Source: Candidatus Moraniibacteriota bacterium
GTDB lineage: Bacteria; Patescibacteriota; Minisyncoccia; Moranbacterales; UBA1568
Direction: 5' to 3'
NCBI GenBank assembly: GCA_963778555.1
Contig: CAVZUR010000004.1
Coordinates: forward strand, 244,151 to 308,150
DNA: 64,000 nucleotides
The notes beneath the pieces are model-generated. The model did not search any database. It saw only the letters and a list, made by a program, of their open reading frames with translations, and had not been told where the DNA came from. Shown in pieces: positions 6,331-62,260 of this stretch; positions within the stretch are counted from its first letter, which is position 1, and each line of letters opens with the position of its first letter. The translations under genes were made by a program, and so were the position numbers.

Positions 6331-6348
6331 AGTCGCTCGGCTTTCGGA

Positions 6349-6894: not shown

Positions 6895-6971
6895 AATCGT
6901 CTTTCAATCGGTAGAAATAAAACAGCCAGCAGGAACTCCCTCCGGCTATTTACCCGACTATCGTACTCCAC

Positions 6972-7616: not shown

Positions 7617-7629
7617 AGTTGCAAAAAAC

Positions 7630-9762
7630 TTAGATCGAGTATGCCTCGTCTTTCAGTTCATTATAGAGCATATTGGCGACTTTGCGAGGCAGCATCGCAT
7701 TCTCCAATAGCTCATCGAGTATCCGCTCCTCGCTCTTGAAAAGGGCTGAGCGACCAAATGATTCATTCATATGAGCCAACTCTGCCCCGATCCGCGTACC
7801 CGCTGCTTCCCGTTTTTGTTCCGCATCAACACGTAATCCCTCATACAACGCGACCACCGAATCACTTGACGCCGAATCTCCATAGAGTCCCGGTGACCGA
7901 TCTCCAAGCGACTTCAATCGGCGGAGTACTTTTGCCAAGACGACTTCCTGGGCCCGATAATAGCGATACTCCTCGAGCGCTTCCTGCTTAGCTGTTTTCG
8001 GCCGGAAGTTGTTCCGGAACCAGAGAACCAGCGTCTCAAACCAGTCTTGCTGAAAACGCTCTGCATGACCCGACACTTGCTCCCTCCCCTCTTCAACGCG
8101 GCTCGTTTGGATGGCAATCTTATTCAGGATCTCCTTATATTCTGACTCTGAAACTTCTTGATAGATAAAAAGTTCCCGAAGGAAACGCTTTTCCATACCC
8201 AGGGCATACATCTGGAGTGCCCGACCCATATCACCCGGCGTGGCAGCGAACAACGTCTTGCAGACTTCCGCCGACCTTTCATACCGCTCCGTGTACTCGC
8301 TTTTCAGTCGCGTAAAGATATCGTCTTTCACATAGCCTTTCGCGTGGAAATCTTCAAGCTTCTCTAGCGCTTCTTGATACACCAAGGCCGCACATTCGTT
8401 ATACTCCAGCGTCTCCAGCGCTGTGAGATCCGACAGCTTCATTCTTTTAATCATCGCGCCGATCGAGGTCGCCTTGATGCAAAGCGTGAAATAGATACAG
8501 CCGATAGTAATGGCCGCGATAAATTCCTTCACTGTGAACTCATAGCTCCAACCGGGAAACGTGAGCGAATCCGGAATGAGCAGCACCATGGTGACTGCGA
8601 GTGCACCGCGTAGACTCCCCCATGCGAGCAGATGCTGCCAACTCAAAGGAATCGGTTCTTCCTTCTTCAGACGATTGACTATAGCCACGACTGGATAGAT
8701 AGACAGCGCGCGCCCGACAAGCACGACAGCAACGGTGAGCAACATCGGCCAGACGAACTGATCGAAGTGTATGGGAAGATCAGCGAAGAGGAGTCCCATC
8801 AAGATGAAGACAAGAGAGTTCGCCACGAAGGCAAAGTAACCCCAGAATTTTTCCATGTATTCCTCGACCCGTGGCGATATTTTGAATCGGCCGTAATTAC
8901 CGATGACCATTGAAGCCATCACTGTCGCAATGATTGATGAGAATTTAATATCTTGGCCAAACAGGACAAAATGATGCGAAATAAGCTCGGAGAGTATGAA
9001 GGTCAGGTGTGCCACGAGCATCGTCAACGTAATCTCAATATGCTCATTATCCTTCACCTTGCCGATGATCTTGGAAAAAACAAAGCCCATGAAGAGACCG
9101 AAGGCACCGCCGCCCACGACCATAGTCGTAAACATGAACACGCCCTCGAGAACACTACCGAGACCGGTGAATCCTGATAGTGCTACCTCAAGGACAATGA
9201 GGAAGAGTGCTAGCGAGGTTCCATCATTGAAGAGGCTCTCGCCTTCGAAAATGAGCGAGAGGCGCCTCGGCACACCGAATTCTTTGAAAAGGGCCAAGAC
9301 TGCTACCGGATCAGTCGCCGAGATGAGCGTGCCAAAGATAAGGGTCGCCATGAAGGGCACCGGAAGACCGATAAACGCCAAGCCGAGATAGAGAGCACCG
9401 GCGACAAAAAACGCTGAGGCAATGAGACTCACGATGGACAGCCACGAGATCGAGCGGACATTCTCAGCCATCTCGCGCATGTTCATGTTATATGCCGACT
9501 CGAAAATGAGCACCGGGAGAAACACGAAGAAAAGAAGCTCAGGCGTCAACTGGAAGCTTTTGATGAAGTGAAAGAGCGGGAAGTCCGTCAGCGGAACGAG
9601 TGCTGATCCGACGATGACGAGCAGCACTGTATACGGCAGCTTCAGCCGTCCAGCGACAAAATATGTCCCGATAGAGATCAGCATGAGGACCGCGATTGCG
9701 AGTACGACTTCGAGCGACATAGAGGCAGTTTTTAGCAAACAAAAGAGGCTCTCGCGAGCCAA
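7630..9762 (-). CDS. CPA1-family Na+/H+ (cation/proton) antiporter of NhaP type with a long cytoplasmic C-terminal domain
   Basis: 710-aa ORF. The N-terminal ~400 aa are polytopic with CPA1 motifs (FLPVLIFESAYNMN, ATDPVAVLALFKEFGVP, LIFEGESLFNDGTSLALF). The C-terminal ~300 aa are soluble. Confidence 0.8.
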   Translation of the reverse strand: MARESLFCLLKTASMSLEVVLAIAVLMLISIGTYFVAGRLKLPYTVLLVIVGSALVPLTDFPLFHFIKSFQLTPELLFFVFLPVLIFESAYNMNMREMAENVRSISWLSIVSLIASAFFVAGALYLGLAFIGLPVPFMATLIFGTLISATDPVAVLALFKEFGVPRRLSLIFEGESLFNDGTSLALFLIVLEVALSGFTGLGSVLEGVFMFTTMVVGGGAFGLFMGFVFSKIIGKVKDNEHIEITLTMLVAHLTFILSELISHHFVLFGQDIKFSSIIATVMASMVIGNYGRFKISPRVEEYMEKFWGYFAFVANSLVFILMGLLFADLPIHFDQFVWPMLLTVAVVLVGRALSIYPVVAIVNRLKKEEPIPLSWQHLLAWGSLRGALAVTMVLLIPDSLTFPGWSYEFTVKEFIAAITIGCIYFTLCIKATSIGAMIKRMKLSDLTALETLEYNECAALVYQEALEKLEDFHAKGYVKDDIFTRLKSEYTERYERSAEVCKTLFAATPGDMGRALQMYALGMEKRFLRELFIYQEVSESEYKEILNKIAIQTSRVEEGREQVSGHAERFQQDWFETLVLWFRNNFRPKTAKQEALEEYRYYRAQEVVLAKVLRRLKSLGDRSPGLYGDSASSDSVVALYEGLRVDAEQKREAAGTRIGAELAHMNESFGRSALFKSEERILDELLENAMLPRKVANMLYNELKDEAYSI

Positions 9763-41799: not shown

Positions 41800-42207
41800 T
41801 TAGCAGCCCGCCGGAAAAGTCACACCATTCGCATCGATGATTGTGCCCCCATTCGTCTCGCAAGCGGTCGCGGTCGCTCCCGTACCTAGATCGACTGATT
41901 CCAGAGCGATATTGAACGTTCCGACACCCGTCGGAGTACAGCTTTGCACAGGGAGACCCAGTGCCATGGTATCGATATAGCTAGTTCCGCTGGTTGGCTC
42001 AGAGAGGTTGGCACCGAGAACAATGACCGTATCATCACAGATGCGGACCGCCGCGACTTGAATCGAATGGACCTGGGCTTTATAGCTCGCCACCAATGCC
42101 CGCTCTCGAGAGCCTATCAAAGAGACCAGGACAATCGAAGCGAGCAGACCGATGAGTCCAACCACGATCAGAATCTCGATTATGGTGAACCCTTTAAGCT
42201 GGTTCAT
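41800..42207 (-). CDS. Type IV major-pilin paralogue 1
   Basis: MNQLKGFTIIEILIVVGLIGLLASIVLVSLIGSRERA... ends ...GVTFPAGC. Confidence 0.8.
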   Translation of the reverse strand: MNQLKGFTIIEILIVVGLIGLLASIVLVSLIGSRERALVASYKAQVHSIQVAAVRICDDTVIVLGANLSEPTSGTSYIDTMALGLPVQSCTPTGVGTFNIALESVDLGTGATATACETNGGTIIDANGVTFPAGC

Positions 42208-42369
42208 TCATTTTTCTCTAAAATGTATAGGGGGAGGTTTTGGATACCCCCCCGGTTCACGTGCGGTTTCAATGAAATAGGGAGATAGCTGTTTGAAAAG
42301 TCCAGACTCGCTTGATCGGCAATAGCGGCATTCACTGTTCCCCAATTACACCCCGAGAAACACGCACTT

Positions 42370-42759
42370 TCAACAACCGACAAAAGCGGTTATCCCTGTC
42401 TCCTCTATCGTGGCTGTACACGGAGTAGTCAATACAGCTGAGGGCACATCGGCGCTAAACGTCTTCGCATCGTTCACACCGCAGAGCTGCCCATTATCGA
42501 CGATTCCAGCCGCATCAATATCGGCGGGAAAAGAACCGAACGATCCCGTCACATCGGTATAGTCGATGTCACTAGAATCGCAAGCCTCAATCGCCTTCGT
42601 CTGAATCGAATGCACGACCGCCTTGAACCGGGCCACCTTGGCTCTCTCACGCGCTCCCGTCAGGGAGACGAGCACGATCGAGGCGAGAATACCGATGATC
42701 GCGATGACGATGAGGAGTTCGATGAGGGTGAATGCACGAGACGTTCTCGATAGAGGCAT
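42370..42759 (-). CDS. Type IV major-pilin paralogue 2 (Ala at -1 of the leader)
   Basis: MPLSRTSRAFTLIELLIVIAIIGILASIVLVSLTGARERAKVA... ends ...GITAFVGC. Confidence 0.8.
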   Translation of the reverse strand: MPLSRTSRAFTLIELLIVIAIIGILASIVLVSLTGARERAKVARFKAVVHSIQTKAIEACDSSDIDYTDVTGSFGSFPADIDAAGIVDNGQLCGVNDAKTFSADVPSAVLTTPCTATIEETGITAFVGC

Positions 42760-42763
42760 ACCG

Positions 42764-43186
42764 CTAACAACCCACGGGGAAAGTCACGCCGGTTTCATCG
42801 AGCGTCGTGCTGTCATCCACGGCACAGGCGGTCGCAGCTGCTCCAGCGCCCAGATTGATAGACTCAAGTGCGATACTAAAGTTGCCCGCGCCATCCACAC
42901 CACAATTCGAAGACGTGTAGGTGACGTTGGCCGCGGCCGTAATCTTATTATTGGTCGCCGGAAACGCGATCTCTCCATCCGCGAGCGTGCCGTCCGCATC
43001 CGAGTCGCAGGCGAGCACCGCTGCGGCCTGAAACGAGTGAACTTGGGCCTTGTAACTCGCGATTTGCGCCTTCTCACGCGCTCCCGTCAGGGAGACGAGC
43101 ACGATCGAGGCGAGAATACCGATGATCGCGATGACGATGAGGAGTTCGATGAGGGTGAAACCGTACTTTTTTGTGAGAATACGCAT
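42764..43186 (-). CDS. Type IV major-pilin paralogue 3
   Basis: MRILTKKYGFTLIELLIVIAIIGILASIVLVSLTGAREKAQIA... ends ...GVTFPVGC. Confidence 0.8.
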   Translation of the reverse strand: MRILTKKYGFTLIELLIVIAIIGILASIVLVSLTGAREKAQIASYKAQVHSFQAAAVLACDSDADGTLADGEIAFPATNNKITAAANVTYTSSNCGVDGAGNFSIALESINLGAGAAATACAVDDSTTLDETGVTFPVGC

Positions 43187-43257
43187 AGTATGTAGCGCGT
43201 CACCTGAACTAGGCAGAGGACCAATCCAGATTCCGATACGCTCTAGTGTTGATTAAT

Positions 43258-43686
43258 TTAGCACCCCGCTGGAAAAACAATCCCGGTATGAGAGATCAGT
43301 GTTCCATCAGCACCCGCGCACGCGACGGCAGCCGCACCCGTACCGAGGTTGATGGACTCGGTCCGAAGGTCAAACGTCCCGGCACCATTGATGCCGCAAC
43401 TCGAGGCGGTGAATGTAATTGTGTTGATCTTGCTGTTCGTAGCGGGAGTCGCTACTTCGCCGGCCGCGAGCGTTCCGTTCGCATCCGAGTCGCACGCGAG
43501 AATCGCGGCGGCCTGGAACGAGTGGGCCTGCGCTTTGTAGACGGCGATCTGCGCCTTCTCACGCGCTCCCGTCAGGGAGACGAGCACGATCGAGGCGAGA
43601 ATACCGATGATCGCGATGACGATGAGGAGTTCGATCAAGGTGAAACCGTGTTTTTTCAATGACTGCTTTCTAATCACTCTACGCAT
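43258..43686 (-). CDS. Type IV major-pilin paralogue 4
   Basis: MRRVIRKQSLKKHGFTLIELLIVIAIIGILASIVLVSLTGAREKAQIAVYKAQAHSF... ends ...GIVFPAGC. It is near-identical to paralogue 5. Confidence 0.8.
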   Translation of the reverse strand: MRRVIRKQSLKKHGFTLIELLIVIAIIGILASIVLVSLTGAREKAQIAVYKAQAHSFQAAAILACDSDANGTLAAGEVATPATNSKINTITFTASSCGINGAGTFDLRTESINLGTGAAAVACAGADGTLISHTGIVFPAGC

Positions 43687-43805
43687 ATTTTTTTATTTTG
43701 GCTGTCACAATCATTGTACCGCAACACCTCAAAGATGGCTATATTTTGTCAAGAGGTGCGCTTATTCAGGGCCCGAGAATCACATACGGGGAACGATACA
43801 AGAAA

Positions 43806-43825
43806 GAGCCGTTCAAAAACGGCTC
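43806..43825 (-). terminator. Rho-independent terminator after pilin paralogue 5
   Basis: GAGCCGTT-caaaa-AACGGCTC is followed by a T-rich tract (read on the minus strand: GAGCCGTTTTTGAACGGCTC TTTCTT). Confidence 0.5.
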
Positions 43826-43854
43826 TTTCTATCCCCAAAGTCGAAACTGAAACA

Positions 43855-44262
43855 CTAGCAGCCCGCAGGGAAGACAACACCCGTATCAGAGATGATGGTT
43901 GCATCCGCACCCGCGCACGCGACGGCAGCCGCGCCCGTACCGAGGTTGATGGACTCAGTCGCCAGAGTGAACGTTCCCGCACCATTCGTACCGCAACTCG
44001 AGGTCGTGAACGTAATGGTGTTGATCTTGCTGTTCGTAGCGGGAGTCGCTACTTCGCCGGCCGCGAGCGTACCGTTCGCATCCGAGTCGCACGCGAGAAT
44101 CGCGGCGGCTTGGAACGAGTGGACCTGCGCTTTGTAGACGGCGATCTGCGCCTTCTCACGCGCTCCCGTCAGGGAGACGAGCACGATCGAGGCGAGAATA
44201 CCGATGATCGCGATGACGATGAGGAGTTCGATCAAGGTGAAACCTTTGTATGTTTTATTCAT
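43855..44262 (-). CDS. Type IV major-pilin paralogue 5
   Basis: MNKTYKGFTLIELLIVIAIIGILASIVLVSLTGAREKAQIAVYKAQVHSF... ends ...GVVFPAGC. Confidence 0.8.
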   Translation of the reverse strand: MNKTYKGFTLIELLIVIAIIGILASIVLVSLTGAREKAQIAVYKAQVHSFQAAAILACDSDANGTLAAGEVATPATNSKINTITFTTSSCGTNGAGTFTLATESINLGTGAAAVACAGADATIISDTGVVFPAGC

Positions 44263-44469
44263 ATTCTCACCTCCTTTCTTGTTTTGTTTTTATCTTCTGC
44301 ATTTCTATTGTATCCCATTTTCGACACTTCGTGTAGCTTTCTGTCAACCCCGTTAAAAGTCTGTCCGGAATGGGTATTGGGAAGTGATAGCAAGAAGATA
44401 TGGGTAGACCTGTTTCAACAATCTTTTTTGTCAGCCTTCTAACAGGATTGAGCCACACCGATTACGAAA

Positions 44470-51732: not shown

Positions 51733-54234
51733 ATGCTCATTCCCGCTTTCGGAGAAAAGCTCTCGCTCCATGCCCGGCACGCCCTGAAAGAGGCGCGCGA
51801 TATTGCGCGTTATACACGAACAGAACAGATCGAGCCGCAGCATCTCCTCCTCGCTCTTTCGCTCGAGTCTGGCAGCCTCGGCAGCATCCTACTTGAAAAC
51901 ATTGGCTTCAAAAAAGACGCTGTCGGAAAGCTCTGCCTGAAGAAAGCGACGGGCCTGAAGAAACAGTCGAGTTCGGATTATTCTCCAGCCCTTTCGCCGC
52001 CGGTCCAAGCCATGGTCAAGCGCGCCTATTTCCTGGCGAAAGAGCACCGCTATCCGTATGTGGGGACCGAGCACCTCGTCGCCGCGCTCCTCGAGAGCGA
52101 GGACGAAGCACTGCGCTCGATCATCGAGGCGTTGGAAGTGAGCGAGGAAAAAGTCCGTGCGGCACTTGATACCAATCTGCGCTTCGAGCACTTCCCCGAA
52201 TTAGCCAAAATGTTCGACCTCCCCGACTTCTCTCTGGCTCCGGAACGGGGCGCACCGGAACGCGGATCGCACGCCAACACCTCTTTCCTCGACCAGTACA
52301 CGATTGACCTCGCCGAGCGCGGAGAAGCGGACCAGACGCGTTTTATTGGCCGCGAACCGGAGCTCGACCGCCTCACGCACATCCTGGGGAGGAAAGAGAA
52401 AAATAATGCCATCCTGATCGGCGACCCCGGCGTCGGCAAGACGGCGCTCGTCACCGCTTTGGCGCTACGCATGCGGCAAGGCCAAGCCGGACCACTCCTC
52501 TCCGGCAAGCGCGTTCTATCTCTTGATCTCGCCCTGCTCGTCGCAGGGACGAGTTTCCGAGGTGAATTCGAAAACCGGGTAAAGGAACTCATCCACGAAA
52601 CGCAGCACCGCTCCGACGTCATTCTCTTCATCGACGAGATTCACACGCTCATCGGCACAGGCAATACCCAAGGCGGTCTCGACGCAGCCAACATCCTGAA
52701 GCCGGCCTTGGCCCGCGGTGAGATCCAAGTCATCGGTGCGACGACGTTTTCCGAGTTCAAGCGACATTTCGAAAAAGACGCCGCGCTCGAACGGCGCTTC
52801 CAGCCGCTGCAACTCGCAGAGCCCTCAGCTGAAGAGACGCTCCGCATTCTGGAGCATGCACGTGCTGGCTATGAGGAATTTCACGCCCTGGCGATTGATG
52901 ATACTGCGCTCCATTCCGCTGTCGACCTCGCAGTCCGCTATATTCCCGACCGCTTTCTCCCCGACAAGGCGCTCGATCTCCTCGATGAAGCCGCATCGCT
53001 CGTTCGTCACCAGAGCGCTGGAAAAAACGGGGGGAACTTCTCGGTACTGCTCGCACTGGAACGCGAGCTTGACGAAACCGAAGAGGAAAAGGAGCGGCTC
53101 ATTGCCGAAGGCAACTATGATCAAGCCGCACGGGCGAAGAAAACCATTACGCGGATCGAAACGAGCATCAATGACCTGACGACTGATGGCTCGGCGCGTC
53201 CCCGAATCAAGCTGCCCCGCGTCACCGAAGCCGACATTCTCCGCGTTGTCTCGCGCACGACCGGCATCCCCTTCGCCCGTCTATCCGAAGACACGCCCAG
53301 CGAACGCCTCCGTCGCGTCGAACAGGCTTTGGTGAAACGTGTAATCGGCCAAGAAGAAGCCAAGGGTAAGATCCTCACGACCCTCAGGCGATCCGTTTCT
53401 GGTGTCAACGATCCCAACCGGCCGCTTGGCTCATTCTTATTTCTCGGGCCGACCGGCGTCGGCAAGACCCATCTCGCGAAGGTGCTGGCGGAAGAATTCT
53501 TCGGCGACGAGAAGGCGCTCATCCGTCTGGATATGAGCGAATTCATGGAACGCCACTCCGTCGCACAGATCATCGGCGCTCCCGCCGGCTATGTCGGCTA
53601 TGGCGATGGTGGAAAACTGACCGAAGCGATCCGCCGGCGGCCGTACGCAGTCGTCCTCTTCGACGAGATCGAAAAGGCTCATCCGGACGTCTTCAATATC
53701 CTTCTCCAGATCCTCGACGAAGGAACCCTCACCGACGCCGAAGGCCGGCGCGTTTCATTCAAGCATACCCTCGTCATTCTCACTTCGAACATCGGCACCG
53801 CGAGCTTCACCCAATCAGCCAAAGTCGGCTTCGCTGAAGCCGTCCCGGGTCGAGTGCTGCGCGCCGAATTCGAAGCGATCAAGCGCGAAGTGCTCGAAGA
53901 GTTGAAGAAAGAACTCCGCCCCGAACTTCTCGGCCGTCTCGACCGTGTCGTTGTCTTCAACGCCCTCGACCAGAAGGCGATCGAACAGATCGCGACGCTC
54001 GAACTCGAAGCGCTTCGCTCGCGTCTCGCGTCCCAAGGTATCATGATCGCGATCCCCCAATCCGTCGACCGCTGGATCGCCGCGAAAAGCTTCGCTCCCG
54101 AACAGGGTGCGCGCCTCGTCCGAAAGAATGTCCAAGAATATGTCGAATCCGTGCTTGCTGAAAAGCTCCTCGGCAAGCGCCTCCCCAAGAAACTCGCGCT
54201 TTCCATCCGCCATGACACTGTCCTCGCTCGCTGA
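51733..54234 (+). CDS. clpC: ATP-dependent Clp protease ATP-binding subunit ClpC/ClpB-type (two AAA+ modules)
   Basis: Clp_N repeats, then Walker A motif GDPGVGKTALV, then IDEIHTLIG, then a second AAA+ module with GPTGVGKTHLAK, a sensor and ClpB_D2-small. The start is taken at MLIPAFGEKLSLHARHALKEA. Confidence 0.85.
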   Translation: MLIPAFGEKLSLHARHALKEARDIARYTRTEQIEPQHLLLALSLESGSLGSILLENIGFKKDAVGKLCLKKATGLKKQSSSDYSPALSPPVQAMVKRAYFLAKEHRYPYVGTEHLVAALLESEDEALRSIIEALEVSEEKVRAALDTNLRFEHFPELAKMFDLPDFSLAPERGAPERGSHANTSFLDQYTIDLAERGEADQTRFIGREPELDRLTHILGRKEKNNAILIGDPGVGKTALVTALALRMRQGQAGPLLSGKRVLSLDLALLVAGTSFRGEFENRVKELIHETQHRSDVILFIDEIHTLIGTGNTQGGLDAANILKPALARGEIQVIGATTFSEFKRHFEKDAALERRFQPLQLAEPSAEETLRILEHARAGYEEFHALAIDDTALHSAVDLAVRYIPDRFLPDKALDLLDEAASLVRHQSAGKNGGNFSVLLALERELDETEEEKERLIAEGNYDQAARAKKTITRIETSINDLTTDGSARPRIKLPRVTEADILRVVSRTTGIPFARLSEDTPSERLRRVEQALVKRVIGQEEAKGKILTTLRRSVSGVNDPNRPLGSFLFLGPTGVGKTHLAKVLAEEFFGDEKALIRLDMSEFMERHSVAQIIGAPAGYVGYGDGGKLTEAIRRRPYAVVLFDEIEKAHPDVFNILLQILDEGTLTDAEGRRVSFKHTLVILTSNIGTASFTQSAKVGFAEAVPGRVLRAEFEAIKREVLEELKKELRPELLGRLDRVVVFNALDQKAIEQIATLELEALRSRLASQGIMIAIPQSVDRWIAAKSFAPEQGARLVRKNVQEYVESVLAEKLLGKRLPKKLALSIRHDTVLAR

Positions 54235-54950
54235 CGCCACGGAAAAGTTTCGCCGATACCTCGTCGATTTTTTCTTTCCTCTGCAGTGCTTCGGCTGTGA
54301 GACAGAGGGCGCGCTCGCGTGCTCTACCTGCCTCGCGGCGGCCTCCCGAACGCGAGTACCAAGAATGCCCTGTTTGCCGCCGACCCTATCAGAAAAATGG
54401 CGCTACGTGCCGGGAGTGCCGGAAAGCGACCGCCTTGGACGGACTCTTTATCGCCCGGCCCTATCGCCACCGCCTCCTGCAAAAACTGCTCTTCGCGCTG
54501 AAGTACCGCTTCATCGATGCCGCAGCCGATCCACTCGCGACGCTCCTCGCGGAGAGCATCGCGCATCATCCGCTTCCGCTCCCTGACTTCGTCATCCCGG
54601 TGCCGCTCCACGCCAGGCGGCTGCGCTATCGCGGTTTCAATCAGGCCGAGGTGCTGGCACGAAAACTCATGGCCCAGCTACTCCCCGGGACGCCCGTTGG
54701 TGTCCGCTCCGATCTCCTTCGCCGCGTGCGCTTCACCAAACCGCAGATGAAAACCGATTCCAAACCAGAGCGCCTCGCCAATCTCTCGGATGCTTTTGTC
54801 GCGCCGCTCGAGACCGCTGGACCGCTCGTCGGCAAGTACATCTGGCTCATTGACGATGTCGCAACCACTGGCGCCACGCTTGACGAATGTGCCCGCGCAC
54901 TGAAAAAGCCGGCGCCAAGACTGTCTGGGGTATCGTCGTCGCCCGCTGAA
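54215..54950 (+). CDS. comFC: ComF family phosphoribosyltransferase-like competence protein (frameshifted at both ends)
   Basis: N-terminal zinc finger ...CFGCETEGALACSTC... (ORF 54107..54586). Then ...LFIARPYRHRLLQKLLFALKYR...VPLHARRLRYRGFNQAEVLARKL...YIWLIDDVATTGATL (PRTase fold). The real C-terminus in the next frame reads ...AKTVWGIVVAR*. Confidence 0.7.
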
Positions 54951-54996
54951 ATTTTGAACAGACATCGAGCGACGACCAAGCTGTTACAATGAGGGC

Positions 54997-55717
54997 ATGA
55001 CGTTCCTTTCCTCATTCGGTGTCGTGTTCCTTTTCGTGGGAATCAGCTACAGCGTTTTCACGTTTCTCCGTATCCACCGATTGATACACGAGAGCGCTGT
55101 CCTCATCGAACGAGCCATGCCATATGAACAGCGCGGCAATCCCGCTGCGCCGAAAGTACTCTTCGTCGGTGACAGCACCGGCGTTGGTGTCGGTACGGAC
55201 GATGCTGCGCTTTCTGTCGCCGGTCGTTATGGCACGGAGTTTCCCGACTGGACAGTCGACAACATTGCCGTCTCCGGGAAGTAAAGCCGTCGACCTCGTC
55301 ACCGTCCTCCGAACTATCCCTGACGCCTCCTATCAGCGAGTTGTCATCCAGATCGGCGGCAACGACATCACGCAGTTTTCCTCCCTGCCACAGCTCAGGC
55401 AGACTATCGAGTCCGTCCTCTATGAAGCACATCGGATTTCCAATCGCGTCTTCCTCCTTACCTCTGGCAATGTCGCCAATGCCCCACTCATTCCTCGTCC
55501 ACTCGCCTTCCTCTGGGAACATCGCACGCGTACCGTCCGCACCCTGTTCATGACCGCATCAAAAAAGACCGGCACGACCTATGTCGATCTCTTCATCGAA
55601 AACCCCAAGGCCGATCCCTTCGCCGTCTTGCCCTATCGCTATCACGCAACTGACCTCTTCCATCCGAGCGCAGCCGGCTACGGTCTCTGGTACACCCAGC
55701 TGAAGCAAGCACTCTAG
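54997..55717 (+). CDS. SGNH/GDSL-family hydrolase (one frameshift at ~55285)
   Basis: Block I VLFVGDSTGVGVG, block III GGNDI, block V DLFHPSAAGY. These are split between ORFs 54997..55284 and 55124..55717. Confidence 0.65.
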
Positions 55718-55720
55718 CGT

Positions 55721-56419
55721 CTACTTCTTTGTCGTCCAGTTCAGCAGCCACTGGACACCATACCGATCTATAAACAAACCAATATAAATTGCCAACAGCG
55801 AACTCCCGAGGAGCCAGCCAGCCAAAACATCCGTGGGCCAATGGACACCGAGGTACAGCCGAGAAACACCAATCAGAAGAATAATGCTTCCAAACACCCC
55901 AATAACCAATGCTTTTGCCCATAGCTTCTTTGCGAAACGCCAGACAAAGTAGCCAACAAGACCATAGAACAGGGTCGCCGATGTGGTATGGCCGCTCGGA
56001 AATGAATATCCACCCCGCTCGACCCACGCATACATCTCGTCTGGACGCAGGCGCTGCACGAGCTGTTTGAAAGCCCAGTAGCCCGCTTGCCCCACAATGA
56101 TCGAGGTTATCAGAAAATAGGCCGGTCGCGTGTTCCCAAAGAATCTGAAGAGCAGCACCAACACTAATCCCAAACTGGTAATGACCCCACCGCTCCCAAG
56201 TTCGGTAATGAATCGAAAGACGGGTGCCATTTCAGGGGTGCGGTGCTGGATGACGAAATCCATCAATTGCCGATCCAGCGCGACGAGCGAGTGATTTCCG
56301 ACGATTTGATACGTGAGAAACAGAAAACCAATGAACAGGAGTCCGCTAATGCTTGCTTCCACCGTAAACAAACGATTATGCGTATGATTCTGAGAAAGTA
56401 CAGTTGTTATGTCAGACAT
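55721..56419 (-). CDS. PAP2-family membrane phosphatase
   Basis: KQLVQRLRP, YSFPSGHT and SRLYLGVHWPTDVLAG are the three PAP2 motifs. Confidence 0.8.
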   Translation of the reverse strand: MSDITTVLSQNHTHNRLFTVEASISGLLFIGFLFLTYQIVGNHSLVALDRQLMDFVIQHRTPEMAPVFRFITELGSGGVITSLGLVLVLLFRFFGNTRPAYFLITSIIVGQAGYWAFKQLVQRLRPDEMYAWVERGGYSFPSGHTTSATLFYGLVGYFVWRFAKKLWAKALVIGVFGSIILLIGVSRLYLGVHWPTDVLAGWLLGSSLLAIYIGLFIDRYGVQWLLNWTTKK

Positions 56420-56829
56420 TTTTAAGTTCTCGGGTCATCCTCGATATTATTTGCTTGATGCGGGCCACTCGGGTTAAGTACCGACCGATGGGGCCGTTGA
56501 GGGGGATTTAGCATCCTTCTCGGGGGACTCGCCGAGGCACCCGAGTCTAGGGTCTTTTTTTACCAAATGAGACTAATAAGACAGTCCTGGGCGTCTTAAA
56601 TATAAAAACGAAAAGTCCGCTGGGCGACAACCCAAACGGACTTTTCCTTTGCTCATAGTACCCGACGACTTTACAGGGTCCTCTACGCCGATTAGCGTGG
56701 AGCGAACACGATGAGGAGTATCCAGGCTCTGTTGTCGCAGAGCTTTTTCAAGCCGGATGTCACTTTCCTTCAGCAAGGGTAAGGAAAAACTATATTTTGC
56801 CCCTCATAGCTGACATCACGGTTCCGAGA

Positions 56830-57459
56830 ATCCGTCTCTCCAACCTTGCGGAAGAAGGTTGAGTTCATTTCGAAACTATTCGAGCGCGAGGAGCAGTCAA
56901 AAGTTGGGTATCAAGGCAAACATGAACCCATCATCGACAAAGAACTCTTTGAGAAAGCCCAGGAGCAGCTAAAGCGTGACAAGATCGTTCGTCAAAGTAG
57001 AGAGTTTGCCTTTACTAAACTCATGCTCTGCGGACTCTGTGGCTCAGGTATATCAGCCGAAGAAAAATACAAGCAGCTCAAAGATGGTTCGGTTGTTAAA
57101 TATATATACTACGGCTGTGGACGATCCAAAGATCGCCACTGCAAGAACCCCTATTAAGGGAAGAAGAAGTAACCGATCAGCTCATTAAAATTATGGACCA
57201 AATCGATCTTAATCAAACTGGCGTACAACATAAATTTGAGGAAGAGCTGAAGCGATATAACAAGTTCAATCGTGGTGTACTTGGGATCAGGAATCAGATC
57301 AAAGATCATCAGGAACTAGACCTTTGCACCTATGCAAAGTACATCCTGCGGGAAGGCACGAACGAAGAAAAACGAGAATTGATGGGATGTTTCAAGTCAA
57401 AAATCAGTATAATGCAGCGAGTCGTTGCTATTGAGGTGGGGCGTGGAATCAACACGTAA
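56830..57459 (+). pseudogene. Large serine recombinase, C-terminal fragment only (recombinase Zn-ribbon plus coiled coil). The catalytic N-terminal domain is absent.
   Basis: ...HEPIIDKELFEKAQEQLKRDKIVRQSREFAFTKLMLCGLCGSGISAEEKYKQLKDGSVVKYIYYGCGRSKDRHCKNPY... Then after a frameshift ...QLIKIMDQIDLNQTGVQHKFEEELKRYNKF.... There is no start codon and no resolvase domain upstream. Confidence 0.55.
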
Positions 57460-57478
57460 AAACTGGTAAAATGTCTCT

Positions 57479-58950
57479 ATGAAGCCTGAAATGACCCAAC
57501 TATTCTCTAGACAGGCTACTCTTGGTTTCTTCGAAGAAACTGGCCTTATTGATCATGTCGAACTTGCAGAAGAATTCTCAACCGAAGTTGACGGGAAAAA
57601 TCTAGCCAAAAAAAACTCCGGGTCTTATACTCCTGAGGAGATAGCTCTCCCTTTAATTCAGCAGGTATTAGATGCAGTAAAACTCAAAGGAAGAAAAGGG
57701 AAGGTTCGAATCATAGATCCTTTTTGCGGGGATGGCAGATTGATCAAATGGATGATCCCCTATCTTAAAAATCTCAAGTGTAGTTTTGAGATATATCTCT
57801 GGGATTATGATGAAGAAGCTGTATCTAGAGCCTCGTCTCAAATAAAAGATATGGGGAGAAAAGCCGGAGTCACTCTCAATCTTTATCCCAGGAAAAAAGA
57901 TTCTTTCGCTGAATTTTTCGAGGGATCGGAGAATAGCTTCGATATCGTAATAACTAATCCACCTTGGGAAGTGATAAAGCCAAGATCCAAAGATCTTGCT
58001 CATGTAGATAAAGAAAAAAAGATTCAATACATTGCAAGCCTTAAGGAATTTTCAAATCGACTCTTAAGAGATTTCCCTTTATCAAAACCCACAAAGGCAT
58101 ACGGAGGCTGGGGAGTAAATCTTGCCCGTGTTGGTACGGAACTTTCTGCACGGTTAGCTAAAAAAGGTGGAGTGATAGGTATTGTTACCCCTTCCACAAT
58201 CTTTGCTGACCAGAATTCCCATAATCTTAGAAAGTGGCTATTCGAGAATAACAATATAAAAAACATAAATGTTTATCCGGCAGAATTAAAACTGTTCACT
58301 GGAGTAGATTAACCATCCGTAAGTTTTGTTTTATTCCGAGATGATCAACAAGATCACCTAAAAATTTCAAACTATCAATCACTGACGAGGCCCACGTCAC
58401 ACGAGATAAAGGATGTGCAAAGTTTACTTAAGTCGACGGATTATATTTTTCCTGTATCGATTGCTACCAATCCGAGTCACTTAGAAATTTTGGCTACATT
58501 TTCGGAACTCTCAAAATTGTCAGATCTAGAGACTCAGCAAGGAGTATGGATGGGGCGAGAACTCGACGAGACTAACTATAAGTCGTGGCTGAGCTACACA
58601 GGTGAGTGCCGCTTTGTTAAGGGAAGAGATGTAGATCGCTTCAATTTAACTACAGCTACTGCTGTTTATATAAACAAGGAAGCTCTACCAAACGATTTGC
58701 CAATATCTATTGGATATCATCGTGTTGTATGGCGAAGACGTATGACGACCAACTCAGAAGCGCCATGTTATTGCAACCATTGTTCCGCCAGGATGCGTCA
58801 CGGGTAACTCTCTTGGAGTATTACATATTAAGAACCAGAGCGAAAGCAAGTCTATCAGCTTTGCTGGGATTAATTTCTAGTTTTGTATTCGAATTCCAGC
58901 TACGAGCTTATTTAGCAATGGAACACTATCAGCGGGGGTTATGAAAAAGG
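57479..58950 (+). CDS. N6-adenine DNA methyltransferase, gamma class (TaqI/Eco57I-like), frameshifted near 58730
   Basis: Motif I IIDPFCGDGRL, motif IV ITNPPW, then a TRD-like region ...CRFVKGRDVDRFNLT.... In another frame ...RSAMLLQPLFRQDASRVTLLEYYILRTRAKAS.... Confidence 0.65.
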
Positions 58951-59129
58951 TTCGCATCCCGATATGGAGCAATTCTTTCGTGAACCATACTTCAAAGTTA
59001 GTATCAAAAAGGATGAGTGGGATTGCTTCGAGCCGAATATCAGTTAGAGGTCGACATTGCAAAGGCCTATGGCTTAAACCGCAATGAGTTTAGTGAAATT
59101 CTCAATGCCTTCCCAAAAGTTTCGAGGAT

Positions 59130-60300
59130 GGGAAAGGGATACGCTCTTGAATAATTAACTTATGGGAAATATGCATGATCCCCAATCACTTCTCTGCAAA
59201 ATTAAGCGATCTCGATTTACGCATGGTAAGAGAGATACCACCAGGCGGAAATTGGAATAATATTCCCGTATCTGTCCCTTCTAAAAGATTGGAGCAAATT
59301 CGACAGGGTTTCGAGGAGGGAAAAGGTTAGCCGTTCAACCTATTACGGCAGACTATCGTCCAAATAAGCCTTCCTATACAATTAGTACTTACTTTAATCG
59401 TCCAGGGAATGGCTGTTTCATACACTACGATCCTAAGCAACAAAGGGTTATTAGCCAAAGAGAGGCGGCTACGTACTCCATACCTTCCCGAGATGACTTT
59501 CATACTTTACAGGATAGAATTTGAGTATCAATAAGCAGATCGGAAATGCTGGCCTCCCGTCCTTGGCTAAAATTGCAAAGAGTTTCGGAAAGCCTGGAAT
59601 CGTGGTTGACCTTTTCACTGGTGCAGGAGGCCTTTCTCTAGGATTTGAATGGTAACGGATGGCAAAATACGTTATCGCCAACGACATAGACGGCTCCTTC
59701 TTGGAAACATACAAAAACGGTAGCATCGAGCGGAGATACTGTTGTCGGAGACATTTCGGGATAAAAAAGTGTTTGAGACGATTGTGAGTAGCGCTCTCGC
59801 GGCTAGAGAAAAAATATCCGGATTTGCCCCTCCGAGCAATTGTGTCGGAACCCCACCACGTGAAGGATTCTCGACAGCGGGCAAAGGGAGAAGCATGGAG
59901 GACGAAAGAAACCACCTTTTTAAAGAACTCACCGAAAAACTTGACGCTATCCAGCCTGACGCTTTCAGTCTTATGAGAACGTCGCCGGACTGATGAATAT
60001 CGAGGGAGGAAAGGTTTTCAAGCTCGTTACTCAAACACTTAAAAAAATCCAAGGGATTAGTCTCGAAGATCTGGAAACTCCAAGCCGAGCATTTCGGCGT
60101 TCCGCAGCGTCGAACGCGAGTAGTAATTGTGGGACACCGAACCGAATACGTTATTAAGGACCTAAAAGCCTCTTACACAAGGGAAAGAGGTTTATTGCTG
60201 TGTAGCCCTGAGCGACCTACCACCTATCCAGGCTTCGGAAGATGGATCAGCAAAGACCTACTTGAAGAAGGCACAGAATAACATTCCAGCGCTTTATGCG
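59130..60300 (+). pseudogene. C5-cytosine DNA methyltransferase remnant with multiple frameshifts. Motif IX/X-like sequence precedes motifs I-VIII, so this is either a permuted enzyme or two fragments.
   Basis: ~59300-59500 reads ...YFNRPGNGCFIHYDPKQQRVISQREAA...SRDDFH (like motif X REAARLQxFPDDF). ~59560 reads VDLFTGAGGLSLGFE (motif I). ~59830 reads ...GTPPREGFSTAGK (degenerate PCQ). ENV...GL appears at ~59975. ~60080 reads ...AEHFGVPQRRTRVVIVG (motif VIII) in a shifted frame. Confidence 0.45.
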
Positions 60301-62002
60301 TGGCGAGATAAACGTTGCCAAATATTTAAAATCTATTGTCGGCTAGAAAAGAGCCAACACCGTCGTCAAGAGGCCTTTAGGCTATCGCGTGTACCTACGA
60401 AGTTGCCTTCGGGCTTATAACTTCTATTCAAGACCTTTTCAACTAATGCGACACATCCAGGGCCTAGGTCGTTTCTAAGCGCCTTGAATACGAGCTTGTC
60501 GCAGGTTTAGCGATATATCTTTCTTACTCGCATTTTCGACTTCAGCCTTCATTGTCTCTAACACTTGAAGACGTAGCAGACGCTCGATTTTCAGCTGGTG
60601 TACTTCACGAATATTTCGCTGCTCCTTAAGGCGTAATTGTTGAGCGAATCAAATGCGATACGGATCATTTCTAGCAGCCTTACTCTTGGAGTACGTATCC
60701 GCACGCTTAGTGCGAAGAATTTCCTTAAACGAAAAGTCAAGAGGATTAAACTCCGTAAATTCAATCTTTTTCTTCCGCAAGCTCGAGACTTAATAAAGTC
60801 AGCAATACTTCCGGATGACCCAGATCGTAAAGTTCCTTCAAGAGAAGGAGGAAGTAGTGCTGGTTGATGCGAAGAAGCTTGCTGAGCTTTGTCGCGCTTG
60901 TATCCGAGTCGGTCCCCTGCGCTTACAACCGTCCCATAGCGCCGTGACCTGGAAAGATGCCACTCTAGTTCCACTTGTTTCTTTTGCAATCAAGGCCTTA
61001 ACATCAGCGTACGTGAGTCGATTTCCCTTAGAGCTGTTGCAGCTCGAGCACAAGGGCTTAAACCACGGCATGTGTGTAAAGCCAAGCGAAATTGGACCAA
61101 TTATGGTCCGCGGACATGTGATCGATTACGAGCCGCATTCGGGACACGGTCCGAAGCCACCTAACGTCATAAGAAGATTTGCCGCTGCCCAGTCGCCCTC
61201 ACACCAGAATCGAAATGCCCTGCGGTCGTCGCTGTAAGTACGGAGGTTTTCGGTCGCTCGGCCGGTGTCCTGTTGATGTCGGCAACATAAATTGTAAGTA
61301 TGGAAACCATCGAGGCGGTCTGGTGCATCCGACATGGCACCTGGAACACTAAGTTCCTCCCTCGTGGCGACAAGGCACGATTTTCTCCGAAGAAGAAACC
61401 GAATATATGCCTCCTCATTCTTCTCCGTATCCACAAGCACAGGAAAGATCGACGATAGGACATCGTATGCGTTAGTGCCAATCTTCTTTACGAGCAAAAG
61501 GAAAAATCTCGTAAATCGTGAGGAAGTCCTCGTATGTAAACTGCGCGTCGTCCTCCAACGCGCGGTTAATTTTCTCAAGCGTATTCTTTGTTGGATATAC
61601 GTAGTTCAAAGACATCACACGACCGCATGTTCTCGGCATGGCTTTTCCTCGAATGGGTCTATCGCCTTTGCTACCTTTGAAATCCACTCGCCTCGAGTTA
61701 CGATCTCTACTTCCTTGGCTTTTCCTTGCCACCAAACAAGACGTCGGTCACGAAGATCCTGCCAGCGACTTTACAGGTGGTCTATTGGATGGCGCGTTCC
61801 AACCAATCCGCCCTTGATCGTCTATGGGAGTCGGGCATCCCTTTAAAATTGGGGTGCTGAAATTTCTTCATATAGCCAACAAACTTCTTTTCCAGGAGCG
61901 TGACGTTGATCGCCCGTATTTCACATTAAGATTACAGGGGCGTCTTGATACCAATAAATCATACAGCTGTGTATGACGGTTTTATTATTTTTCAATGTAT
62001 CT

Positions 62003-62125
62003 GTATCTGGGATGGGACTCGAACCCACATAGCTTGCGCCACCTCTTTAGAGAACTTCCAATGCTTGGAAACTCTGGTAAAAAGGCATGTCTACCATTCC
62101 ATCACCCAGATGTACTTACGGGCAT
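62003..62125 (-). tRNA. tRNA-like element with type-II tRNA features (D-loop GGAATGGTAGAC, T-arm GTGGGTTCGAGTCCCAT, GNRA variable arm) but an aberrant 34-nt anticodon loop. It could be an intron-containing tRNA or a pseudo-tRNA.
   Basis: The minus strand reads ATCTGGG-TG-ATG-GAATGGTAGA-CAT-G-CCTTT-[TTACCAGAGTTTCCAAGCATTGGAAGTTCTCTAA]-AGAGG-TGGCGCAAGCTA-TGTGGG-TTCGAGT-CCCAT-CCCAGAT-A. The acceptor stem ATCTGGG/CCCAGAT is perfect. Confidence 0.3.
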
Positions 62126-62172
62126 TATATACCCCGTAAGGCACTCGGGTAATCCGATATGAAATACTCAGT

Positions 62173-62260
62173 GCGGAGAGGGAGGGATTCGAACCCTCGA
62201 GGGAGTTTAATCCCCGCCACGTTAGCAGTGTGGTGCCTTAAGCCGCTCGGCCACCTCTCC
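62173..62260 (-). tRNA. tRNA-Ser (anticodon GCU)
   Basis: The minus strand reads GGAGAGG-TG-GCC-GAGCGGCTTAA-GGC-A-CCACA-CTGCTAA-CGTGG-long variable arm-GAGGG-TTCGAAT-CCCTC-CCTCTCC-G. The acceptor and T stems are perfect, the variable arm is long, and the anticodon loop is CT-GCT-AA. Confidence 0.8.

What the first reader, a model, noticed from the sequence alone, without database searches (positions are those of the whole stretch)
56800..62260. AT-rich ~5 kb island at a tRNA locus: serine-recombinase remnant plus decayed N6- and C5-methyltransferase genes
Composition changes abruptly at ~56.8 kb and returns at ~62 kb, next to tRNA-Ser(GCU) and a tRNA-like element. Inside are three fragments. 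One is the C-terminal Zn-ribbon and coiled-coil half of a large serine recombinase with no catalytic domain. One is a gamma-class N6-adenine MTase (DPFCGDG, NPPW) split once. One is a C5-MTase in many pieces. No intact endonuclease is recognisable in the ~1.6 kb that follows. This looks like an integrated restriction-modification mobile element that has been disarmed. The orphan MTase activities may or may not persist.
Basis: partly seen in the sequence, partly recalled or inferred. Interest (0 to 1): 0.55.

Follow-up and report, generated by a model that had tools for sequence, protein, structure and literature searches.

The report
Dead restriction-modification island at tRNA-Ser
This AT-rich 5.7-kb stretch is the wreck of a mobile element that a serine integrase once inserted at a tRNA-Ser gene. 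It carries a complete but apparently inactivated three-gene restriction-modification system of the well-known Alw26I/Eco31I/Esp3I (BsaI-like) type, so it is an ordinary kind of feature.

Summary
The island is real. GC is 0.446 against 0.549 for the rest of the window. Junction analysis places it at 56,464-62,171, not 56,800, ending at tRNA-Ser(GCU) (62,173-62,260, minus strand).

It holds four genes in the order found intact in metagenome contigs:
- a large serine recombinase, of which only codons ~249-448 survive;
- an Alw26I-family m6A methyltransferase;
- a naturally circularly permuted m5C methyltransferase;

A frameshift-aware alignment finds about 39-41 frameshifts and 3-5 stops in the three restriction-modification genes. 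The m5C catalytic Cys is replaced by Arg.

The window lineage has an excess of nonsynonymous, GC>AT-biased changes, which supports real decay. Three observations leave assembly error as a live rival for part of the frameshifts:
- the indels are insertion-biased (33:6);
- they are unevenly distributed;
- they also occur in the neighbouring host genes ComF and SGNH.

The integrase family usually sits convergent to a tRNA 3' end, mostly tRNA-Ser, with conserved att arms. Both arms are present at the island's edges.

Verdict: a degraded integrative restriction-modification island, and a new member of a known kind.

The parts
56417..56463 (.). Relic tRNA-proximal att arm of an older element of the same family (CTCGGGTCATCCTCGATATTATTTGCTTGA), ending in the displaced tRNA 3'-end pentamer TGCGG (56,459-56,463).
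   Evidence: 83-92% identical to the sequence directly 3' of tRNA-Ser in L006, L007 and L060. It matches the proximal-arm consensus yGGGTC..CGATA..|GCGG seen in most recombinase loci.
56464..56600 (+). Distal end of the island: the att arm GCCACTCGGGTTAAGTACC directly after the core, then a conserved GGCACCCGAGTC / T-run / AATGAGACTAATAAGAC block.
   Evidence: The same GCGG|GCnACTCGrGTTAAGTACC junction occurs in 9 other recombinase loci (10 matches against 3.1 expected). L100 is identical over 25 nt. The block is conserved in L001 and L026.
56601..56863 (.). Unassigned DNA between the distal arm and the recombinase remnant. It contains the internal deletion breakpoint and a 67-aa minus-strand ORF with no homologue found.
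   Evidence: No blastn or tblastx match to 150 related loci. Recombinase homology starts at ~56,864.
56864..57463 (+). Large serine recombinase remnant, codons ~249-448 of 448, with one -1 frameshift at 57,156. The catalytic resolvase domain is absent.
   Evidence: Pfam Recombinase and Zn_ribbon_recom. tblastn and frameshift-aware alignment to L001/L002 integrases give 70-75% identity.
57479..59174 (+). m6A DNA methyltransferase pseudogene (Alw26I/Eco31I/Esp3I family, gamma-class motif order). It has TAA at 58,310, TGA at 58,743 and frameshifts at 58,736, 58,848, 58,928, 59,034, 59,131 and 59,156.
   Evidence: The corrected translation scores 392.8 bits on TIGR02987 (cut-off 353.5). Lesion map. 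Intact homologues are 561-567 aa.
59175..60343 (+). Circularly permuted m5C DNA methyltransferase pseudogene with 17 frameshifts, one TAG, and motif IV PCQ changed to PRE (catalytic Cys lost).
   Evidence: 87% identity to the L001 C5 methyltransferase after frame correction. PF00145 matches in two stretches. Natural permutation of this family is reported in PMC5944983.
60329..61951 (-). Type IIS restriction endonuclease pseudogene (RE_Alw26IDE, HNH) with full-length coverage and 16 frameshifts. It is convergent with, and overlaps, the C5 gene end, as in intact relatives.
   Evidence: Pfam PF09665 hits on fragments. The corrected protein scores 387.5 bits on PF09665 and 412.5 on TIGR02986 (cut-off 443.85; intact relatives 450-451). 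Lesion map.
62003..62111 (-). tRNA-like gene with a 27-nt perfect hairpin inserted in the anticodon loop. It is probably a disrupted or non-functional cargo tRNA.
   Evidence: ARAGORN intron mode and fold. Not called by default ARAGORN or by the Rfam tRNA model at E<=1. No match in the viral collection or in 164 loci.
62140..62171 (.). tRNA-proximal att arm of the island (GGCACTCGGGTAATCCGATATGAAATACTCAG).
   Evidence: Matches the proximal-arm consensus and the arms of L001 and L002.
62172..62260 (-). Core repeat TGCGG (62,172-62,176) and tRNA-Ser(GCU), whose 3' end faces the island.
   Evidence: ARAGORN and Rfam. 96-97% identical to tRNA-Ser(GCU) of related Moraniibacteriota genomes.

Best explanation
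An integrative element mobilised by a large serine recombinase inserted at the 3' end of tRNA-Ser(GCU) in a Candidatus Moraniibacteriota-like (CPR/Patescibacteria) genome. It probably went in next to the relic of an earlier element of the same family.

Between the integrase and the tRNA it carried a complete Alw26I/Eco31I/Esp3I-family type IIS restriction-modification cassette. That cassette has a separate m6A methyltransferase and a permuted m5C methyltransferase, one for each strand of an asymmetric GTCTC-type site, plus a convergent HNH endonuclease.

An internal deletion then removed the rest of the element and the first ~248 codons of the integrase, which fixed the island in place. The restriction-modification genes drifted without selection and accumulated frameshifts, a few stops and missense changes at conserved positions. 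The island now neither moves, restricts nor methylates.

Shown: gene identities, order, junctions and the lesion map. Inferred: the order of events, the recognition sequence, and that all lesions are biological.
For: Identity:
- Pfam and NCBIfam hits on the raw fragments and on the frame-corrected proteins.
- More than 1000 intact endonuclease homologues and more than 260 m6A methyltransferase homologues.

Module:
- Intact recombinase-N6-C5-endonuclease modules with the same order and orientation occur in L001, L002 and L003, ending at tRNA-Ser.

Integration:
- TGCGG is repeated at both edges.
- The distal arm GCCACTCGGGTTAAGTACC and the proximal arm CTCGGGTAATCCGATA are conserved across independent loci.
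- In this recombinase family, 57 of 128 loci have a tRNA within 7 kb downstream. All 57 are convergent and 35 are tRNA-Ser. Only 3 of 137 loci have one upstream.
- Relatives L007 and L009 lack the restriction-modification genes at this tRNA.

Decay:
- The same lesions appear with three independent references.
- Relative-rate tests show window-specific amino-acid acceleration: C5 34 vs 2, endonuclease 48 vs 14, recombinase 24 vs 7.
- Window-unique changes at codon positions 1+2 are GC>AT biased, 111:77 against 46:62 in L001.
- Family-model scores are 17-47 bits below those of intact relatives.
- The catalytic PCQ motif reads PRE.
- GTCTC is not avoided in the host (O/E 0.97).
Against: - Indels are 33 insertions to 6 deletions, the opposite of the usual bacterial deletion bias.
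- Only 3 clear nonsense substitutions accompany ~40 frameshifts.
- Lesions are very uneven: one in N6 codons 1-415 against 41 in the next 3.2 kb (Poisson P=2e-6).
- The conserved host genes ComF (2 frameshifts) and SGNH hydrolase (1) just left of the island are also broken. ComF shows no amino-acid acceleration.
- Together these fit local consensus errors in a metagenome assembly.
- No isogenic empty site and no second assembly of this population was found.
Confidence: 0.7

Rival explanations
1. The restriction-modification cassette is intact, or nearly so, in the organism. Most frameshifts are consensus errors in a poorly covered or strain-variable part of a metagenome-assembled contig. On this reading it is an active type IIS system on an immobilised island.
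For: - Insertion bias of 33:6, reproducible with three references.
- Few nonsense substitutions.
- A sharp change in lesion density inside one gene.
- Frameshifts in the conserved neighbours ComF and SGNH without relaxed-selection signal, while 10 kb further left has none.
- Third-position-dominated divergence from L001: codon-position identity .92/.93/.64 for C5.
Against: - The frameshift-rich segment also carries a window-specific excess of nonsynonymous, GC>AT-biased substitutions. These outnumber the indels about 3:1. That does not match the indel-dominated error profile I would expect of long-read consensus (my knowledge; not tested here).
- The catalytic Cys is changed to Arg together with the adjacent Gln to Glu.
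- Model scores are eroded.
- The integrase truncation is structural and is not a base-calling error.
Confidence: 0.2
2. One reading: methyltransferase-only remnants with no endonuclease gene, in which one or both orphan methyltransferases may still act.
For: The 277-codon N-terminal ORF of the N6 gene (57,479-58,312) is intact, shows no accelerated change, and is annotated as a protein in the public record (P0049).
Against: - A full-length endonuclease pseudogene fills 60,329-61,951.
- The N6 ORF lacks the C-terminal half present in all 561-567-aa homologues.
- The C5 gene has 17 frameshifts and no catalytic Cys.
Confidence: 0.06
3. The low-GC stretch is native DNA, not a horizontally acquired element.
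For: GC declines gradually from ~55.5 kb rather than in a step.
Against: - The same module occurs at 70-87% protein identity in unrelated contigs next to other tRNA-Ser genes.
- Conserved att arms lie at both edges.
- The genes are absent from seven related Moraniibacteriota loci.
Confidence: 0.02

Closest known systems
Alw26I / Eco31I / Esp3I (BsmAI, BsaI, BsmBI) type IIS restriction-modification systems
   Same: - An HNH endonuclease of Pfam RE_Alw26IDE / TIGR02986.
- An m6A methyltransferase of TIGR02987.
- An m5C methyltransferase with motifs IX-X ahead of I-VIII.
- Two separate methyltransferase genes, as in Eco31I/BsaI rather than the fused M.Alw26I/M.Esp3I (the fusion/separate distinction rests partly on my knowledge of Bitinaite et al. 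2002).
   Different: - All three genes are interrupted as sequenced.
- The recognition sequence is unknown.
- The cassette is carried as cargo of a serine-integrase element in a CPR bacterium.
Large serine recombinase (phage-type) integrases, for example the CcrB/XisF-like enzymes that are the best NCBIfam neighbours
   Same: Intact relatives have resolvase, Recombinase, Zn-ribbon and coiled-coil domains. They leave a short shared core at the junctions.
   Different: - No NCBIfam equivalog cut-off is reached.
- The family is found at tRNA 3' ends. To my knowledge that niche is typical of tyrosine integrases, not serine integrases.
- The window copy lacks the catalytic domain.
tRNA-associated genomic islands and 'grounded' (decayed) prophages
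   Same: - Insertion at a tRNA 3' end.
- Deviant composition.
- An integrase remnant and cargo defence genes.
- Internal deletion and pseudogenisation.
- The relative L001 carries TerL, TerS and ParB-methyltransferase genes.
- 67 relatives of the integrase lie in IMG/VR contigs.
   Different: The repeat at the edges is only 5 bp plus imperfect arms, not a long copy of the tRNA 3' end. Related elements with both ends visible are small, 6-15 kb.

Membership tests
Alw26I/Eco31I/Esp3I type IIS restriction-modification system | Endonuclease matches the family model over its full length | tested here: met
   The frame-corrected protein scores 387.5 bits on PF09665 (cut-off 23.1), covering 8-458 of 507 positions. 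TIGR02986 gives 412.5 bits over 2-425 of 425, just under the 443.85 cut-off. Intact relatives L001 and P0165 score 450.5 and 451.4.
Alw26I/Eco31I/Esp3I type IIS restriction-modification system | Family-specific m6A methyltransferase (TIGR02987) | tested here: met
   The corrected protein scores 392.8 bits against a cut-off of 353.5, covering 3-518 of 523. DPFCGDG and NPPW are present.
Alw26I/Eco31I/Esp3I type IIS restriction-modification system | Circularly permuted m5C methyltransferase (IX-X before I-VIII) | tested here: met
   The alignment to the intact L001 and L165 C5 methyltransferases shows the TRD/IX/X part first, then DLFTGAGG, PPxxGFS and ENV. PF00145 matches in two stretches. Literature: PMC5944983.
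Alw26I/Eco31I/Esp3I type IIS restriction-modification system | HNH catalytic motif in the endonuclease | tested here: met
   MSADH...CSSCNSSKGN is retained in the corrected frame, and there is a weak HNH_5 hit.
Alw26I/Eco31I/Esp3I type IIS restriction-modification system | Uninterrupted genes encoding active enzymes | tested here: not met
   About 39-41 frameshifts and 3-5 stops, and the C5 catalytic Cys is changed to Arg. This assumes the sequence is correct.
Alw26I/Eco31I/Esp3I type IIS restriction-modification system | Recognition of a GTCTC-type site with cleavage 1/5 outside it | not testable with these tools
   The only indirect test was site avoidance: GTCTC is not avoided in the host (O/E 0.97).
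Large serine recombinase integrase | N-terminal resolvase catalytic domain with the nucleophilic Ser | tested here: not met
   Homology starts at codon ~249 and nothing upstream matches. Intact relatives have PF00239.
Large serine recombinase integrase | Recombinase domain, Zn ribbon and coiled coil | tested here: met
   PF07508 and PF13408 hits, and 70-75% identity to L001/L002 over aa 249-444.
Large serine recombinase integrase | Element bounded by att junctions sharing only a short core | tested here: met
   TGCGG lies at 56,459-56,463 and 62,172-62,176. Conserved distal and proximal arms occur in independent loci. Recombination itself was not tested.
tRNA-associated genomic island / prophage remnant | Insertion at a tRNA 3' end, deviant composition, absence from relatives | tested here: met
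   The tRNA 3' end faces the island. GC is 0.446 against 0.549. The restriction-modification genes are absent from 8 related loci. L009 has the tRNA followed by a terminator and no arm. No isogenic empty site was found.

The most novel reading that the evidence does not exclude
The integrase remnant belongs to a large, apparently uncharacterised family of serine integrases. More than 540 metagenomic relatives and 67 IMG/VR loci were found. The family targets the extreme 3' end of tRNA genes: Ser in 35 of 57 cases, and also Gln, Asp, Arg and Glu. It has conserved att arms (proximal yGGGTC..CGATA, distal GCnACTCGrGTTAAGTACC) and a variable cargo slot between the integrase gene and the tRNA. That slot here holds a type IIS restriction-modification cassette. 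The family would be a serine-recombinase counterpart of the classical tyrosine-integrase tRNA islands, and it produces tandem 'graveyards' at tRNA-Ser in CPR bacteria.
Probability: 0.45. Interest if true: 0.5.

Novelty: new member of a known kind. Interest (0 to 1): 0.3.

Why it matters
For the genome, it means this locus should be annotated as four pseudogenes of one decayed integrative element, not as separate methyltransferase fragments. It also means no methylation motif should be expected from it.

For quality control, the odd lesion pattern flags 54.3-62 kb of the contig as worth checking against the reads.

The wider by-product is a serine-integrase family with predictable att arms at tRNA 3' ends. 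That could be useful for delimiting mobile elements in CPR genomes, and as a source of new site-specific integrases.

Tried and rejected
- **Long direct repeats of the tRNA 3' end at the left edge.** None were found with the repeat finder. Only a 5-bp core plus imperfect arms turned up, and only through comparison with relatives.
- **Stop-codon reassignment.** I considered it because the first endonuclease alignment showed five in-frame stops in one frame. I rejected it because they are a mix of TAA and TGA and disappear once frameshifts are modelled.
- **L006 and L007 as empty sites.** I first read them that way. I revised this because L006 carries its own integrase element, and the shared 47 bp is the family's proximal arm.
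- **Identifying the source record.** Exact protein look-up gave no accession.
- **Viral-collection scan with the N6 protein.** Nothing found.
- **Homologues of the tRNA-like element and of 56,560-56,870.** None found.
- **Homologue-free frameshift detector for the rest of the window.** It was not discriminating, because normal operon overlaps swamp it. Pfam on suspicious ORF pairs was uninformative.
- **GTCTC avoidance in the host.** Absent.
- **Search for a >=90% identical intact copy of the endonuclease or N6 gene.** None found; the best matches were 81% and 68%.
Full report
**Observation.**
The composition shift is real. In 500-nt windows GC falls from 0.56-0.63 (52-55.5 kb) to 0.37-0.49 (57-62 kb) and returns to 0.61-0.63 after 62.25 kb. 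At 1-kb resolution the 57-59 kb stretch (0.40-0.41) is the lowest in the whole 64-kb window. The island averages 0.446 against 0.549 for 1-56,400. The fall on the left is gradual from ~55.5 kb, not a step at 56.8 kb.

ARAGORN and Rfam find tRNA-Ser(GCU) at 62,173-62,260 on the minus strand, with its 3' end facing the island. The 'tRNA-like element' exists at 62,003-62,111 (minus). It has a 7-bp acceptor stem, a T arm and a long variable region, but a 27-nt perfect hairpin sits in the anticodon loop. It is called only in ARAGORN's intron mode, as Arg(UCU), and not by the Rfam tRNA model.

**What the genes are.**
Pfam on the raw ORFs gave these hits:
- Recombinase and Zn_ribbon_recom for 56,846-57,157;
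- Eco57I and N6_Mtase for the 277-aa ORF at 57,479-58,312;
- RE_Alw26IDE for three minus-strand ORFs between 60,838 and 61,735.

Homologue searches returned hundreds of ~560-aa 'Alw26I/Eco31I/Esp3I family m6 adenine methyltransferases' and more than 1000 ~530-aa endonucleases of the same family.

The contigs encoding the two best N6 homologues show an intact four-gene module. It consists of a large serine recombinase (448 aa), the N6 methyltransferase (561-567 aa), a C5 methyltransferase (381-385 aa) and a convergent endonuclease (527-531 aa). tblastn of these proteins against the window covers N6 1-547, C5 2-385 and the endonuclease 6-531, but the recombinase only from 249 to 444.

After frame correction:
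- the N6 protein passes the NCBIfam family cut-off (392.8 against 353.5);
- the endonuclease matches PF09665 (387.5 bits) and TIGR02986 end to end (412.5 bits, just under 443.85; intact relatives score 450-451);
- the C5 protein matches PF00145 in two stretches.

The C5 gene starts with the TRD/IX/X part and continues with motifs I-VIII. That is the natural topology of M.Alw26I, M2.Eco31I, M.Esp3I, M2.BsaI, M.BsmAI and M.BsmBI (PMC5944983). So the island carries one complete cassette of a well-known type IIS family, with separate methyltransferases as in Eco31I/BsaI.

**Lesion map.**
I wrote a frameshift-aware protein-to-DNA alignment and ran it with three independent intact references: L001, L002 and L165. 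The lesions fall at the same coordinates each time.

| Gene | Identity to L001 | Lesions |
|---|---|---|
| N6 methyltransferase | 71% | CAA>TAA at 58,310; TCA>TGA at 58,743; six frameshifts between 58,736 and 59,156 |
| C5 methyltransferase | 87% | 17 frameshifts, one TAG, motif IV PCQ now reads PRE (catalytic cysteine lost) |
| Endonuclease | 83% | 16 frameshifts, no nonsense codon |
| Recombinase remnant | 70-75% | one clear -1 frameshift at 57,156 |

The five 'in-frame stops' seen at first in the endonuclease are products of being out of frame. They are not evidence of recoding.

**Are the lesions biological?**
Evidence for real decay:
- Tajima relative-rate tests with L002 as outgroup show window-specific excess of amino-acid changes in C5 (34 vs 2, p=1e-7), the endonuclease (48 vs 14, p=2e-5) and the recombinase (24 vs 7). 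Third-position changes are equal in the two lineages.
- The window-unique changes at codon positions 1+2 are GC>AT biased (111:77 against 46:62 in L001) with transitions exceeding transversions.
- Family-model scores are 17-47 bits below those of intact relatives.

Evidence that calls for caution:
- Indels are +1 x23, +2 x10, -1 x5 and -2 x1. That is 33 insertions to 6 deletions, the reverse of the usual bacterial bias.
- Only about three nonsense substitutions accompany some forty frameshifts.
- Lesion density is bimodal. There is one lesion and no acceleration in N6 codons 1-415, against 41 lesions with acceleration in the next 3.2 kb (Poisson P=2e-6).
- The conserved host genes just to the left are also broken: ComF (+1 at 54,344, -1 at 54,907) and an SGNH hydrolase (+1 at 55,276). 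ComF shows no acceleration at all. Eight genes in 44-54.2 kb are clean.
- No second assembly of this population and no >=90% identical intact copy exists in the protein collections searched.

I therefore rate 'real pseudogenes' at ~0.7 and 'largely consensus error' at ~0.2. The mosaic pattern could also reflect recombination that recently replaced the left part of the cassette. N6 is equidistant from L001 and L002, whereas C5 and the endonuclease are clearly closer to L001.

**Host and integration.**
The ClpB-like protein upstream is 76-81% identical to proteins of Candidatus Moraniibacteriota MAGs, some of which are mislabelled Bdellovibrionales. None of eight related loci carries the restriction-modification genes.

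The island's edges are defined by comparison:
- Left junction: ...CTCGGGTCATCCTCGATATTATTTGCTTGA-TGCGG|GCCACTCGGGTTAAGTACC...
- Right junction...GGCACTCGGGTAATCCGATATGAAATACTCAG|TGCGG-AGAGGG, where TGCGG-AGAGGG is the tRNA 3' end.

The distal arm GCGG|GCnACTCGrGTTAAGTACC recurs in nine other loci of the same integrase family (10 hits against 3.1 expected). One IMG/VR locus is identical over 25 nt. The proximal arm yGGGTC-N2-6-CGATA-N10-12 directly abuts the tRNA 3' end in most loci.

Across 150 loci holding relatives of the integrase, 57 of 128 have a tRNA within 7 kb downstream. All 57 are convergent and 35 are tRNA-Ser of all four isoacceptors found. Only 3 of 137 have a tRNA upstream. The gap between integrase and tRNA ranges from 98 bp to ~7 kb, so it is a cargo slot. 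Here and in L001-L003 it holds the restriction-modification cassette. In L165 the same cassette sits next to a LexA/CI-like repressor instead.

L001 also encodes TerL (phrog_38, 1e-89), a TerS-like protein and a ParB-methyltransferase. 67 relatives of the integrase lie in IMG/VR contigs. The elements are therefore phage-related, although those with both ends visible are only 6-15 kb.

The 47 bp to the left of the island (56,417-56,463) are nearly identical to the proximal arms of L006, L007 and L060. I read them as the relic of an earlier element that was displaced when the present one integrated (a tandem site), not as pristine host flank. L100 shows the same arm-core-arm junction between two tandem elements. 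L009 has this tRNA followed by a plain terminator hairpin and no arm, and is the nearest thing to an unoccupied site.

**Mechanism (inferred).**
The sequence of events would be:
1. Integration by the serine integrase at the GCGG at the end of the tRNA acceptor stem.
2. The cassette protects its carrier by m6A on one strand and m5C on the other strand of an asymmetric site, with cleavage by the HNH endonuclease.
3. An internal deletion between ~56,600 and 56,864 removes the element body and the integrase catalytic domain.
4. The endonuclease is lost or relaxed, then the methyltransferases.

GTCTC is not under-represented in the host (O/E 0.97; rank 212 of 512 pentamers). There is thus no sign of long coexistence with an active enzyme of that specificity.

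**Novelty.**
The cassette, its permuted methyltransferase, tRNA-linked islands and decayed restriction-modification systems are all well known. The finding is a new, dead member of a known kind, and I score its interest at ~0.3.

The more interesting by-product is the integrase family itself: serine recombinases that occupy the tRNA-3'-end niche usually held by tyrosine integrases, with recognisable arms. I did not find this described in two literature searches, but the literature tool is incomplete, so this is a lead and not a claim.

Noticed in passing
window 54,218-54,946 and 54,976-55,717: The conserved host genes ComF(C) and an SGNH/GDSL hydrolase are frameshifted: ComF +1 at 54,344 and -1 at 54,907 in an A5 run, SGNH +1 at 55,276. 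ComF shows no excess of amino-acid change. These are either very recent pseudogenes or local assembly errors.
   Followed up: partly
window 62,003-62,111 (minus): A full cloverleaf tRNA-like gene with a 27-nt perfect hairpin (ACCAGAGTTTCCAAGCATTGGAAGTTC) in the anticodon loop, a class-II-like D arm and a long variable arm. It has no homologue in the viral collection or in the fetched loci. Its origin and function are unexplained.
   Followed up: partly
window 56,540-56,590; L001 855-900; L026 1185-1240: The distal end of the elements carries repeated ATGAGAC / GTCTCAT motifs that look like operators. They contain GAGAC, the Alw26I core site, but they also occur in L026, which lacks the restriction-modification cassette, so this is probably coincidence.
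   Followed up: no
window 55,721-56,419 (minus): A PAP2 phosphatase gene with GC ~0.50 lies between the host SGNH gene and the relic att arm. It has no counterpart in eight related loci. It may be cargo of the older, vanished element rather than a host gene.
   Followed up: no
L009 15,005-15,451: In a related genome, tRNA-Ser(GCU) is followed upstream by a 120-aa GIY-YIG-like ORF and then a partial second copy of the tRNA 5' half. This suggests a small nuclease cassette inserted into, and partly duplicating, the tRNA gene.
   Followed up: no
L100 ~7,300-7,360 and L099 (same IMG/VR contig, two integrase copies): A proximal arm - TGCGG - distal arm junction lies between two related elements. It is evidence that these elements stack in tandem at one tRNA. 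Its distal arm is identical to the window's over 25 nt.
   Followed up: partly
L165 (OBEQ010185932.1) 3,611-8,735: The same N6-C5-endonuclease cassette (endonuclease 81% identical to the corrected window protein) sits beside a LexA/S24 CI-like repressor. There is no serine integrase and no tRNA called there. The cassette therefore moves between different element backbones.
   Followed up: no
window 41,800-44,300 (minus): Five tandem paralogous genes of ~140 aa, with multiple paralogues also in related Moraniibacteriota loci. Nearby genes at 38.1-39.9 kb carry the type IV pilin N-methylation motif.
   Followed up: no
window vs L006/L007: tRNA-Ser(GCU) is inverted relative to ClpB-ComF in L006 and L007 compared with the window and L009. 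The genes between ComF and the tRNA differ in every genome. The tRNA neighbourhood is a rearrangement hot spot.
   Followed up: no
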